This document shows, piece by piece, positions 99 to 1,277 of a stretch of 3,229 bases of DNA. The notes below the pieces were generated by a model, which was not told the DNA's origin, ran no database searches, and saw nothing but the letters and a program-made list of their open reading frames with translations. The translations under genes were made by a program, and so were the position numbers. Position 1 is the stretch's first letter; every line of letters begins with the position of its first letter. The DNA comes from Escherichia coli (GTDB lineage: Bacteria; Pseudomonadota; Gammaproteobacteria; Enterobacterales; Enterobacteriaceae). Where the stretch lies: assembly GCF_003334255.1 (NCBI RefSeq), contig NZ_QOWU01000125.1. One strand, 5' to 3'.

Positions 99-1277
99 TT
101 AAAACTCGAAGTTCACACCAACGTTCCAGGAGGCATCCCCATCACTGAATGCCACGCCTGCTTTCGCTGCGGTCTGCTCGTTGAAGCGGTAACCCACACC
201 CACTGCCAGTGCCTGCTGGTCGCTGTAACCACCAACCGCTGCCGTGGCGTTGAATTTACCCACACTGTACGGCTGGAACAGACCTGTCAGGGCCGCAGAC
301 TGTGCTGCTGCACGCTTCATTTCCTTGTGGTTTTCATTAATCTGGCGCTGCTGGCTGTCCAGACGTGCTGAATGTTGCTGCAGCGTACGGGTATTGGCTG
401 CAATCGCCTTGCTGTTTTTCTCAATGGATTGCGTGTTACGGGTGACACGGCCATCAATGGCACCAACTGCTGCATCAATACGGTCAGTACGACCAGACAG
501 GGCCACCAGACCATCGTTAACAGAAATGGTGTTCTTTGCACCTTCTGCACGGGTCAGGGTGCCATCAGAACTCACACCAACCAGTGTGCGGGATTCGACT
601 TTTGCAGCTGTTGCAGCAGCCGCAGCATCAATCTTGTCGGTACGCGTGGTCAGTTCACCAAGATTTTTCTTCTGCGCTTCAAGCTCGCCTTTCTGAGCAT
701 CAAGCTTGCCTTTCTGAGCTTCAAGCTCATTCGCAACAATGGTGGAGTTGGCGGACTCCCATGCCAGATAGCGCTGCAAAGATACGCGTTCTTTTATTTC
801 ATTCGGTGTTACAGCCACATTTCCATACTCATCCAGGCCGACGTTGGTTTCCATCTGCTGGATTGCTGAAACGCGGTTGTACAGGTCACGGATATTCTGT
901 TCTGTCAGGAGGTTTGTCTTAATATCATCAGTTTTCCCTGATGCCGCAGCCTTCATGAAATCATGAACTTCTTTATCATAAACAGTAAATGTTGTTGAGC
1001 CGTCTGCGGAGGTAATTGTAACATTACCATTGCCATCTATTTTACTGAGAAGTGGAATCGGCTTATTTCGCTCTTTTTCCACATCACCTAAGCCACCCCA
1101 ATCAATATGTGCCGTTTTATTATCTGGGTTATAATATACTTTATAAATACTCCCAGCGCCGTTCTGAGCATTTAAAGCAGAATAAGATTGCTCAGCAGCC
1201 ATAATATCAAAGCTAACCCCAAACAAAACACCTGCCATTGCCGCAGACAAAACAGCCTTTGTAAATTTCTTGCTCAT
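99..1277 (-). CDS. eibA: Eib-type immunoglobulin-binding trimeric autotransporter adhesin (YadA-like family), 392 aa
   Basis: Seen in sequence: N-terminal Sec signal peptide (MSKKFTKAVLSAAMAGVLFGVSFDIMAA, AxA-like cleavage site); Ala/Gln/Lys-rich coiled-coil stalk with heptad-like repeats (ELEAQKGKLDAQKGELEAQKKNL); C-terminal YadA-type membrane anchor (LTGLFQPYSVGKFNATAAVGGYSDQQALAVGVGYRFNEQTAAKAGVAFSDGDASWNVGVNFEF) ending in an aromatic residue as in outer-membrane beta-barrels. Established knowledge: Eib genes are prophage-borne YadA-like adhesins sitting next to tail-fibre genes. The paralog call eibA rests only on my recollection that EibA is 392 aa and is not verified by alignment. Confidence 0.85.
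   Translation of the reverse strand: MSKKFTKAVLSAAMAGVLFGVSFDIMAAEQSYSALNAQNGAGSIYKVYYNPDNKTAHIDWGGLGDVEKERNKPIPLLSKIDGNGNVTITSADGSTTFTVYDKEVHDFMKAAASGKTDDIKTNLLTEQNIRDLYNRVSAIQQMETNVGLDEYGNVAVTPNEIKERVSLQRYLAWESANSTIVANELEAQKGKLDAQKGELEAQKKNLGELTTRTDKIDAAAAATAAKVESRTLVGVSSDGTLTRAEGAKNTISVNDGLVALSGRTDRIDAAVGAIDGRVTRNTQSIEKNSKAIAANTRTLQQHSARLDSQQRQINENHKEMKRAAAQSAALTGLFQPYSVGKFNATAAVGGYSDQQALAVGVGYRFNEQTAAKAGVAFSDGDASWNVGVNFEF
678..730 (-). repeat. Tandem 21-bp direct repeats (about 2.5 copies) inside the adhesin stalk coding region
   Basis: TTCAAGCTCGCCTTTCTGAGC (678-698), ATCAAGCTTGCCTTTCTGAGC (699-719), partial TTCAAGCTCAT (720-730). They encode the 7-aa repeats LEAQKGK / LDAQKGE / LEAQKKN of the coiled coil. 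Confidence 0.8.

What the first reader, a model, noticed from the sequence alone, without database searches (positions are those of the whole stretch)
99..1277. Immunoglobulin-binding trimeric autotransporter adhesin carried as cargo directly downstream of tail-fibre genes
A complete YadA-like adhesin gene with its own terminator sits beside a prophage tail-fibre module, separated from it by a compositionally distinct AT-rich spacer. That is the hallmark of a phage moron, a lysogenic-conversion gene with independent expression. Eib-family proteins bind IgG/IgA Fc non-immunologically and confer serum resistance, so this prophage would alter the host's interaction with the immune system.
Basis: partly seen in the sequence, partly recalled or inferred. 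Interest (0 to 1): 0.5.

Follow-up and report, generated by a model that had tools for sequence, protein, structure and literature searches.

The report
Known prophage gene eibA, re-found

Summary
The ORF at 99..1277 (minus strand, 392 aa) is real and is eibA. The whole 3,229-bp window aligns without gaps to GenBank AF151091.1 (prophage P-EibA of E. coli ECOR-9) with 10 mismatches. The protein differs from published EibA at 2 of 392 residues.

It has a full-length YadA-type membrane anchor at its C-terminus. Its lower stalk (residues 229-330) is 92% identical to EibD, whose structure is solved. The EibD segment I recall as binding IgG Fc is 34/35 identical in EibA; the segment I recall as binding IgA is absent. 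EibA also lacks the YadA-like head and neck, which is already published.

The gene order on the minus strand is tail fibre, orf-191A (DUF4376), a 681-bp spacer of 38.6% GC, eibA, a strong hairpin plus U8 terminator, then orf-156A. Related prophages at the same chromosomal site lack the eib block, which supports "cargo".

Three corrections apply. eibA is part of a larger cargo block. Its expression is reported to depend on the unlinked ibrAB genes. IgA binding is not expected for EibA.

Side observation: all 10 mismatches cluster in 218-315 and match eibC/eibD. The window is an entire short draft contig, so this is either gene conversion between paralogs or an assembly chimera.

Novelty: already known.

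The parts
99..1277 (-). eibA coding sequence (392 aa plus stop), a trimeric autotransporter adhesin and immunoglobulin-binding protein
   Evidence: ORF. The window matches AF151091.1, where this gene is annotated eibA, at 99.7%. The protein is 390/392 identical to AAF63234.1. The exact protein is RCQ33195.1/WP_114322239.1.
1194..1277 (-). Signal peptide, residues 1-28 (MSKKFTKAVLSAAMAGVLFGVSFDIMA|A)
   Evidence: Read directly from the sequence: a Lys-rich N-terminal region, a hydrophobic core and an I-M-A cleavage-type motif. No signal-peptide predictor was available. The first six residues, MSKKFT, are shared with EibC, D and E.
858..1193 (-). N-terminal 'Eib region' domain (about residues 29-140), the variable tip of the adhesin
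   Evidence: No Pfam hit. It is 26-29% identical to EibC, D and E, and 3-90% identical among the other alleles compared (most of them behind the same A-type spacer). It is described as a novel fold in AlphaFold2 trimer models (PMC12511318).
594..857 (-). Upper stalk (about residues 141-228), including the repeat ELEAQKGKLDAQKGELEAQKK; it takes the place of the YadA-like head, neck and right-handed coiled coil of EibC, D and E
   Evidence: Alignments show EibC, D and E carrying about 120 extra residues here. The literature states that EibA lacks the beta-roll head and neck and that this part of its stalk is left-handed (PMC7568254, PMC12511318).
288..593 (-). Saddle plus left-handed coiled-coil stalk (residues 229-330). 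It includes residues 265-299 (window 381-485), which correspond to EibD 384-418, the segment I recall as binding IgG Fc
   Evidence: 92% identical to EibC and EibD over this segment. It aligns to the EibD crystal structures 2xqh and 2xzr. 34 of 35 residues are identical to EibD 384-418. The residue range for IgG binding comes from my memory of Leo et al. 2011.
102..287 (-). Membrane anchor (residues 331-392), contributing four beta-strands per monomer to a 12-strand trimeric barrel
   Evidence: Pfam YadA_anchor over 334-392, E=3.6e-16, full model length. YadA anchor structure 2lme, E=1.3e-18.
218..315 (-). Patch holding all 10 nucleotide differences from canonical eibA; at every one the window has the eibC/eibD base (protein changes S345T and E354Q)
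   Evidence: GenBank eibA and three independent assemblies (L018, L019, L020) are identical to each other over all 1,179 nt and differ from the window at these same 10 sites.
39..75 (-). Intrinsic terminator of eibA: an 11-bp stem, a 9-nt loop and a U8 tract
   Evidence: Fold of -30.2 kcal/mol, z=-5.07. Annotated stem_loop in AF151091.1. A matching hairpin lies downstream of eibC, D and E.
1..8 (-). First 8 nt of orf-156A, a gene of unknown function that follows eib in the eib loci examined where the downstream sequence is available
   Evidence: Annotation. No Pfam family. PHROG 6585, unknown function. It follows eib in L002, L003-L013, L016, L018 and L020.
1295..1323 (-). Predicted sigma-70 promoter of eibA (TTGAAC, 17 nt, GATAAT), with the -10 hexamer ending 18 nt before the ATG
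   Evidence: Consensus scan, 9 of 12 matches. This alone is not significant, because 4 sites were found and 4.1 expected. However, the -10 hexamer sits inside a core (ATTTGTATACAGATAATTT) that is identical upstream of eibA, C, D and E, while the rest of the spacers are only about 53% identical.
1381..1418 (.). Perfect 11-bp inverted repeat GAAATTCCGAA-N16-TTCGGAATTTC, about 104 bp upstream of the eibA start codon
   Evidence: (repeat I10) and the fold (z=-2.87). Annotated stem_loop in AF151091.1. The arms are conserved in all but one of 8 other copies of the spacer (one copy has a single substitution in an arm). Function unknown.
1278..1958 (.). AT-rich non-coding spacer (38.6% GC) between the tail-fibre module and eibA
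   Evidence: Found in 27 of 5,426 complete E. coli genomes at 93-99.6% identity; every copy whose surroundings were examined lies upstream of an eib-type gene. No Rfam match.
1805..1832 (+). Plus-strand (antisense) terminator-like unit GGGGAG-N6-CTCCCC followed by a T run
   Evidence: It is one of the diverged repeat units of about 120-127 bp.
1934..1959 (+). Second plus-strand terminator-like unit, AGGGGC-N6-GCCCCT followed by T7, abutting the orf-191A stop codon
   Evidence: repeat D3, spacing 127 nt.
1959..2534 (-). orf-191A, a DUF4376 protein of the tail-fibre module (tail-fibre or tail-fibre-assembly type)
   Evidence: Identical to AAF63233.1. PHROG 1141 'tail fiber protein', E=6e-78. Pfam DUF4376 on the called gene.
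2548..3229 (-). 3' part (226 codons) of the orf-401-like side tail fibre gene, with collagen-like Gly-X-Y repeats
   Evidence: Translation, identical to AAF63232.1. Pfam Phage_fiber_2 and Collagen. Tail-fibre PHROGs. Catalogued as collagen-like protein EPclC of P-EibA in PMC3368898.

Best explanation

Likely mechanism:
- The 392-aa precursor is exported through Sec using its 28-residue signal peptide (inferred from the sequence).
- Three C-terminal anchors, four strands each, assemble into one 12-strand outer-membrane barrel. The passengers thread through it and form a trimeric coiled-coil stalk (established for the family; the anchor and stalk homology is shown here).
- The conserved left-handed coiled coil just outside the membrane binds the Fc part of IgG non-immunologically (published for Eib proteins; segment conservation is shown here).
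- This contributes to serum resistance, and the variable N-terminal domain mediates self-association and surface attachment (published).
- The gene is read from its own promoter within the AT-rich spacer (predicted) and ends at its own intrinsic terminator (shown by folding). It can therefore be expressed in the lysogen, with reported help from the unlinked ibrAB genes and static growth.
For: - Identity: the window matches AF151091.1 at 3219/3229 nt with no gaps, with eibA annotated at the same coordinates. The protein is 390/392 identical.
- Family features: YadA_anchor E=3.6e-16 at the extreme C-terminus. EibD structures at E=1.7e-31 and 5.5e-27, and the YadA anchor at 1.3e-18.
- Stalk: residues 229-330 are 92% identical to EibC and EibD, and 34/35 identical to EibD 384-418.
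- Terminator: -30.2 kcal/mol, z=-5.07.
- Promoter: the core is identical across four paralogs although the spacers are otherwise about 53% identical.
- Prophage context: J, lom, tail fibre, DUF4376, eib, orf156, S6 peptidase.
- Presence/absence: the prophage at the ompW/yciE-trp site in STEC299 runs from the DUF4376 genes almost straight to the ompW remnant, while S1-KEN-03-A at the same site carries eib-orf156-SPATE (a serine-protease autotransporter) plus IS1 and other material. In strain GE3 a related prophage also ends just after DUF4376.
- Rarity: DUF4376 homologues occur in 141 complete genomes but eib in only 40.
- Literature: Eib proteins bind IgG/IgA Fc and give serum resistance (PMC7247748, PMC5450701). 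EibA lacks the head and neck and autoaggregates (PMC7568254, PMC12511318). ECOR-9 expresses its Eib proteins under static growth (PMC5450701). ibrB enhances Eib expression (PMC7649339, citing Sandt 2002).
Against: Nothing contradicts the identification. The limits are as follows.
- No binding, expression or transcription-start data can be produced here.
- The promoter call is only a 9/12 consensus match in a scan that found no more sites than chance.
- The primary papers (Sandt & Hill 2000 and 2001; Sandt et al. 2002; Leo et al. 2011) are not held in the library, so EibA-specific binding data and the Ig-binding residue ranges rest on my recollection and on secondary citations.
- The anchor-coding patch 218-315 may be an assembly chimera, so this exact allele (T345, Q354) may not exist in nature.
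Confidence: 0.96

Rival explanations
1. The protein is a virion component, a phage tail or host-recognition adhesin that belongs to the tail-fibre module, and not a bacterial surface protein made by the lysogen.
For: Several PHROG families that match it are labelled 'tail' or 'adhesin' (phrog_17426, phrog_26246). In short-tailed, P22-portal-type phages the eib cassette lies between two tail-fibre modules rather than at the prophage end (L006, L007, L018). It shares trimeric fibrous architecture with tail fibres.
Against: It has a Sec signal peptide and a complete YadA-type outer-membrane beta-barrel anchor, features of cell-envelope proteins and not of virion parts. It has its own terminator and a 681-bp non-coding spacer that uncouples it from the upstream tail genes. 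Published work shows EibA on the bacterial surface causing aggregation and biofilm (PMC7568254, PMC12511318). The best-scoring PHROGs (9547, 10464, 8062) carry no function.
Confidence: 0.02
2. The ORF as it stands is an assembly artefact: a chimera of eibA with the eibC/eibD anchor region, produced when a short-read assembler threaded through near-identical paralogs. The gene is real, but this exact allele is not.
For: The window is an entire 3,229-bp contig of a draft assembly (QOWU01000125.1). All 10 differences from canonical eibA lie within 98 bp, and each carries the eibC/D base. GenBank eibA and three independent assemblies are identical to each other over all 1,179 nt. The exact protein is on record from one contig only.
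Against: T345 and Q354 are the commoner states among eib alleles, and mixed states exist naturally (KEN03 has T345 with E354). The family is visibly recombinogenic, so real gene conversion is equally plausible. Sequence on both sides of the patch, including the eibA-specific terminator loop, is of eibA type. This rival does not change what the gene is.
Confidence: 0.45
3. It is a different Eib paralog (C, D, E, F or G), or a generic YadA-family adhesin without immunoglobulin binding.
For: The anchor and lower stalk are shared by the whole family, and the anchor patch is actually of C/D type.
Against: Length (392 aa against 487-511), signal peptide, N-terminal domain and upper stalk match EibA at 100% and EibC, D and E at only 22-46%. 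The flanking spacer, orf-191A and tail-fibre gene are identical to P-EibA. EibF and EibG sequences were not retrieved, but they are longer according to the literature (49 and 54 kDa against 42 kDa; PMC7247748).
Confidence: 0.01

Closest known systems
EibA of prophage P-EibA, E. coli ECOR-9 (GenBank AF151091.1, AAF63234.1; UniProt Q9LA60)
   Same: Same gene, same neighbours and same non-coding DNA: 3219/3229 nt and 390/392 aa.
   Different: There are ten substitutions in the anchor-coding stretch 218-315, all to the eibC/D state, giving S345T and E354Q.
EibD (structures 2XQH and 2XZR) and EibC, EibE
   Same: Saddle, left-handed coiled coil and anchor are shared: 92% identity to EibC/D over residues 229-330 and 100% over the anchor. 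The promoter core and downstream terminator/orf-156 arrangement are the same.
   Different: EibA lacks the YadA-like beta-roll head, the neck and the right-handed coiled coil, about 120 residues in all. Its N-terminal domain is only 26-29% identical. The EibD 329-344 segment is absent. The upstream spacer is about 320 bp longer.
YadA of Yersinia (prototype trimeric autotransporter adhesin)
   Same: C-terminal anchor (PF03895; 2lme E=1.3e-18) and the general lollipop architecture with a coiled-coil stalk.
   Different: There is no YadA head or neck and no match to the NCBIfam YadA model above its cut-off (66 bits against 750). The gene is prophage-borne rather than on a virulence plasmid. The ligand is immunoglobulin Fc rather than collagen.
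Lambdoid prophage cargo genes at the tail-fibre end (for example lom and bor of lambda)
   Same: A surface or virulence-related gene placed next to the tail genes, with its own transcription signals, that alters the lysogen's interaction with the host (lom lies in the same prophage).
   Different: eib travels as a cassette with orf-156 and orf-60. It also occurs inside the tail region of short-tailed phages. Its expression is reported to depend on a separate chromosomal island, ibrAB.

Membership tests
Trimeric autotransporter adhesin (type Vc secretion) | C-terminal YadA-type membrane anchor domain at the very end of the protein | tested here: met
   PF03895 over residues 334-392, model 1-60 of 60, E=3.6e-16. 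2lme YadA anchor, E=1.3e-18.
Trimeric autotransporter adhesin (type Vc secretion) | N-terminal Sec signal peptide | tested here: met
   By inspection only: MSKKFTKAVLSAAMAGVLFGVSFDIMA|AEQ has a basic N-terminal region, a hydrophobic core and a small-residue cleavage motif. No predictor was available.
Trimeric autotransporter adhesin (type Vc secretion) | Coiled-coil stalk connecting the passenger to the anchor | tested here: met
   Residues 216-323 align to the crystallised EibD stalk (2xqh, 2xzr).
Trimeric autotransporter adhesin (type Vc secretion) | Obligate homotrimer (heat-stable multimer) | not testable with these tools
   Published for EibA: expected trimer of 121 kDa seen on gels (PMC7568254); multimers above 120 kDa in ECOR-9 (PMC5450701).
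YadA-like adhesin in the narrow sense | Left-handed parallel beta-roll head plus neck | tested here: not met
   No YadA head or stalk Pfam hit. The head/neck columns of EibC, D and E are gaps in EibA. Stated in PMC7568254 and PMC12511318.
Eib (E. coli immunoglobulin-binding) proteins | Close sequence identity to a named Eib protein | tested here: met
   390/392 identical to EibA AAF63234.1.
Eib (E. coli immunoglobulin-binding) proteins | Conserved stalk segment associated with IgG Fc binding (EibD 384-418; range from my memory of Leo et al. 2011) | tested here: met
   EibA 265-299 is 34/35 identical. That two regions of the EibD stalk bind IgA and IgG respectively is stated in PMC7247746.
Eib (E. 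coli immunoglobulin-binding) proteins | Stalk segment associated with IgA binding (EibD 329-344; range from memory) | tested here: not met
   0 of 16 identical and 10 gaps in EibA. This is consistent with my recollection that EibA shows no IgA binding (Sandt & Hill 2001, not held).
Eib (E. coli immunoglobulin-binding) proteins | Non-immune binding of human Ig and increased serum resistance | not testable with these tools
   Published for the family (PMC7247748, PMC5450701). The EibA-specific primary data are not held in the library.
Phage moron / lysogenic-conversion cargo | Own transcription terminator | tested here: met
   Hairpin plus U8 at 39-75, -30.2 kcal/mol, z=-5.07.
Phage moron / lysogenic-conversion cargo | Own promoter | tested here: inconclusive
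   TTGAAC-17-GATAAT at 1323-1295, 9 of 12 matches, with the scan's site count no higher than chance. Its core is identical across eibA, C, D and E. There are no transcription-start data.
Phage moron / lysogenic-conversion cargo | Present or absent between otherwise related phage genomes | tested here: met
   At the same ompW/yciE-trp integration site, STEC299 has no eib block and S1-KEN-03-A has it. DUF4376 homologues occur in 141 genomes against eib in 40. An identical eibA occurs in two different phage backbones.
Phage moron / lysogenic-conversion cargo | Composition distinct from neighbouring phage genes | tested here: met
   Spacer 38.6% GC and the 5' half of eibA 42.8%, against orf-191A 49.1% and the tail fibre 56%. 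The 3' half of eibA is 54.2%, so the gene itself is a compositional mosaic.
Phage moron / lysogenic-conversion cargo | Expressed from the uninduced prophage | not testable with these tools
   ECOR-9 produces Eib proteins in static culture (PMC5450701). Activation by ibrAB is cited in PMC7649339.

The most novel reading that the evidence does not exclude
The 681-bp AT-rich spacer may be a regulatory module, not inert filler. It is better conserved than the eib coding sequence (99.6% against 94.6% in strain S1-KEN-03-A). It carries a perfect 11-bp inverted repeat about 100 bp upstream of eibA. It also contains two to three diverged repeat units of about 120-127 bp, each ending in a terminator that faces against the direction of every gene here. 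It could produce an antisense or divergent small RNA, or be the site where silencing of this foreign DNA is lifted by the ibrAB products. Separately, the 218-315 patch could be a real gene-conversion event between eib paralogs on different prophages in one cell.
Probability: 0.15. Interest if true: 0.3.

Novelty: already known. Interest (0 to 1): 0.08.

Why it matters
It matters little as a discovery. eibA, its prophage, its neighbours and even its flanking stem-loops were described and deposited in 2000, and its domain architecture has been modelled since. The result is useful mainly as a positive control: a reader without tools recognised the gene, its boundaries, its family and its cargo status correctly from raw sequence. 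The small residual value lies in the paralog-type patch, which is a caution about short draft contigs of multi-copy prophage genes, and in the uncharacterised, well-conserved upstream spacer.

Tried and rejected
- Rfam, permissive E-value scan of the whole window: no match.
- Plus-strand ORF 1607-1840 (77 aa, with a hydrophobic stretch) as a possible small membrane protein: rejected. Other copies of the spacer carry an 11-bp duplication, a 2-bp deletion or a 117-bp insertion inside it, and it matches no NCBIfam or PHROG family. My first attempt used the wrong frame.
- Plus-strand hairpins at 1805-1832 and 1934-1959 as terminators of the tail-fibre operon: rejected. On the gene strand they have an A-run before the stem and no U-run after it (read).
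- Reading the primary papers (Sandt & Hill 2000 and 2001; Sandt et al. 2002; Lu 2006; Merkel 2010): not held.
- ORF-156A function: no Pfam family and only unknown-function PHROGs.
- Structure prediction was not run. AlphaFold2 trimer models of EibA are already published (PMC12511318), and a monomer model of an obligate trimer would add nothing.
- EibF and EibG sequences were not retrieved, because the EibA assignment was already unambiguous.
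Full report
**Observation.** The window has one long ORF at exactly the stated coordinates: 99..1277 on the minus strand, ATG start, 392 aa. Pfam places a complete YadA_anchor domain (PF03895, model 1-60 of 60, E=3.6e-16) on residues 334-392, the extreme C-terminus. A search of solved structures returns the EibD stalk fragments 2xqh (E=1.7e-31) and 2xzr (5.5e-27) and the YadA anchor 2lme (1.3e-18).

**Identity.** A megablast of the whole window against GenBank phage records gives one full-length, ungapped hit: AF151091.1, 'Prophage P-EibA' of E. 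coli ECOR-9, at 99.7% identity. The record's annotation puts eibA ('immunoglobulin-binding protein EibA') on the same coordinates. It lies between orf-191A and an orf-401-like tail fibre gene upstream, and orf-156A, orf-60A and the autotransporter gene eaaA downstream. J and lom lie further upstream, and stem-loops are annotated on both sides of eibA.
- A base-by-base comparison finds 10 mismatches in 3,229 nt. orf-191A and the tail-fibre fragment encode identical proteins, and EibA differs at two residues, S345T and E354Q.
- Against the other ECOR-9 paralogs the assignment is unambiguous. EibC, D and E are 487-511 aa long and share only 22-46% identity with this protein over the signal peptide, N-terminal domain and upper stalk. 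They share 74-92% over the lower stalk and 85-100% over the anchor.

**Anatomy of the protein.**
- Residues 1-28 read as a Sec signal peptide (by inspection only).
- Residues 29 to about 140 form the family-specific N-terminal 'Eib region'. It has no Pfam match.
- Residues 141 to about 228 are a helical stalk that includes the repeat ELEAQKGKLDAQKGELEAQKK.
- Residues 331-392 are the anchor.
- The alignments show that EibA has gaps where EibC, D and E carry the YadA-like beta-roll head, the neck and the right-handed coiled coil. This is already stated in the literature (PMC7568254; PMC12511318, which also gives AlphaFold2 trimer models).
- A review states that two different regions of the EibD stalk bind IgA and IgG respectively (PMC7247746). 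Using the residue ranges I recall from Leo et al. 2011 (not held), the IgG Fc segment EibD 384-418 is 34/35 identical in EibA 265-299. The IgA segment EibD 329-344 has no counterpart: 0 of 16 identical and 10 gaps. This fits my recollection of Sandt & Hill 2001 that no IgA binding was observed for EibA. I could not check that paper.

**Transcription signals.**
- Twenty-four nucleotides after the stop codon lies an 11-bp GC-rich stem with a 9-nt loop and eight U residues (window 39-75). The 71-nt fold is -30.2 kcal/mol, z=-5.07, and no shuffle of 200 folds as well. Matching hairpins lie downstream of eibC, D and E.
- Upstream, the consensus scan proposes TTGAAC-17-GATAAT at 1323-1295. On its own that is weak, since the scan found no more sites than expected by chance.
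- When the four ECOR-9 upstream regions are aligned, however, they are about 53% identical overall but share an identical core, ATTTGTATACAGATAATTT, which contains this -10 hexamer just before the start codon. I treat the promoter as likely but unproven.

**Is it cargo?** The spacer (1278-1958) has 38.6% GC and the 5' half of eibA 42.8%. orf-191A has 49% and the tail-fibre part 56%. The 3' half of eibA has 54%, so the gene is itself a compositional mosaic.
- In complete E. coli genomes, homologues of orf-191A occur in 141 of 5,426 genomes, eib-type sequence in 40, and near full-length eibA type in 10.
- Strain S1-KEN-03-A has a complete lambda-like prophage next to trpA-yciE and an ompW remnant. 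Its order is terminase ... J, lom, tail fibre, DUF4376, eib, orf156, S6 peptidase, IS1, tail-assembly remnants.
- Strain STEC299 has a prophage at the same site in which J, lom, tail fibre and the DUF4376 genes run almost directly to the ompW remnant, with no eib block. In strain GE3 a related prophage also ends right after DUF4376.
- The canonical eibA also occurs, identical over all 1,179 nt, in a quite different backbone: a phage with a P22-type portal, where the cassette DUF4376-eib-orf156-orf60 sits between two tail modules (L018). Eib-like genes occupy the same position in phages PhiR5_2 and GER2.
- So eib behaves as a mobile cassette and the cargo reading is supported. It is not a single-gene insertion, and it is not always at the end of the late operon.
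- Expression in lysogens is reported under static growth (PMC5450701) and is enhanced by the unlinked ibrAB genes (PMC7649339, citing Sandt et al. 2002). 'Independent expression' therefore needs that qualification.

**What else is in the window.**
1. All ten differences from GenBank lie in 218-315, and at each the window carries the eibC/eibD base. GenBank eibA and three independent assemblies are identical to one another over the whole gene and differ from the window at these same ten sites. The window's exact protein is on record from one contig only. That contig is 3,229 bp long, so the window is the complete contig QOWU01000125.1 of draft assembly GCA_003334255.1. The patch is either a gene-conversion tract between paralogs or an assembler path through a near-identical repeat. 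I cannot tell which.
2. The spacer is found in 27 genomes at 93-99.6% identity; every copy whose surroundings I examined lies upstream of an eib-type gene. In S1-KEN-03-A it is more conserved (99.6%) than the eib coding sequence (94.6%). The eib alleles behind that spacer have N-terminal domains as little as 10% identical to EibA.
3. The spacer holds a perfect 11-bp inverted repeat at 1381-1418.
4. It also holds two terminator-like hairpins with T-runs that face the plus strand, against every gene here, at 1805-1832 and 1934-1959, 127 nt apart. Other copies have a 117-bp insertion with a third such unit.
5. A 77-codon plus-strand ORF that overlaps them is not conserved as coding, and Rfam finds nothing. 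These features remain unexplained.

**Comparison and verdict.** The object is a member of the trimeric autotransporter adhesins (anchor, stalk and signal peptide features met; trimer state published). It is a member of the Eib family, being EibA itself. It is 'YadA-like' only in its anchor and general plan: the YadA head and neck were tested and are absent. It fits the phage-cargo pattern on terminator, composition and presence/absence, with the promoter still unproven. Everything central to the finding was published in 2000-2002 and elaborated in 2011-2025, so the novelty class is 'already known' and the interest is low.

Noticed in passing
window 218-315: All 10 nucleotide differences from GenBank eibA cluster here, and each one is the eibC/eibD base. 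Three other assemblies carry the canonical eibA with no differences. This is either gene conversion between paralogous prophage genes or an assembly chimera.
   Followed up: yes
window 1-3229 (whole): The window is a complete 3,229-bp contig (QOWU01000125.1, GCA_003334255.1). The left end lies in sequence shared by the eib loci (start of orf-156); the right end lies in the collagen-like tail-fibre gene, which I take to be repetitive (not tested). Repeat-bounded ends would be typical of a contig in a short-read draft.
   Followed up: partly
window 1805-1832 and 1934-1959 (+ strand): Two GC-hairpin plus T-run units sit 127 nt apart and face against all the genes in the window. Other copies of the spacer have a ~117-bp insertion after window 1734 that adds a third unit. 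They are not terminators for the tail-fibre operon, and no Rfam family matches. Their purpose is unknown.
   Followed up: partly
window 1381-1418: A perfect 11-bp inverted repeat, GAAATTCCGAA-N16-TTCGGAATTTC, lies about 104 bp upstream of the eibA start. The arms are conserved in all but one of 8 other copies (one has a single arm substitution), while the loop varies. It could be a protein-binding site or an RNA hairpin.
   Followed up: partly
window 1296-1314: A core sequence, ATTTGTATACAGATAATTT (as read on the gene strand), is identical upstream of eibA, eibC, eibD and eibE although the spacers are otherwise about 53% identical. It includes the palindrome TGTATACA and the predicted -10 hexamer.
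   Followed up: partly
window 1278-1958 versus 99-1277: In strain S1-KEN-03-A the non-coding spacer is 99.6% identical to the window but the eib coding sequence only 94.6%. Across genomes the same spacer precedes eib alleles whose N-terminal domains are 10-90% identical. This suggests rapid shuffling or diversification of the adhesin tip behind a constant control region.
   Followed up: partly
window 2800-3100 (- strand): The tail-fibre gene contains long collagen-like Gly-X-Y repeats, which raise local GC to 66-70%. This protein (ORF-401 of P-EibA) is already catalogued as collagen-like protein EPclC (PMC3368898).
   Followed up: yes
window 1-8 and L001:5623-6093: orf-156 (no Pfam family; PHROG 6585, unknown function) directly follows the eib terminator in the eib loci examined where the downstream sequence is available. 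This includes a divergent eib-like gene in cattle strain R1, where orf-156 is only 76% identical. It may be a functional partner of the adhesin.
   Followed up: partly
L018:8600-11922 versus L001: An eibA gene identical over all 1,179 nt sits in two unrelated phage backbones. One is lambda-like with J, lom and stf; the other has a P22-type portal, with the cassette between two tail modules. This indicates recent cassette exchange between phage types.
   Followed up: partly
L013:1187-2500 (strain DETEC-S792): A natural hybrid eib allele (437 aa) combines the EibA signal peptide, a different N-terminal domain, an EibD-type neck and right-handed coiled coil (including the putative IgA segment), and the common lower stalk.
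   Followed up: no
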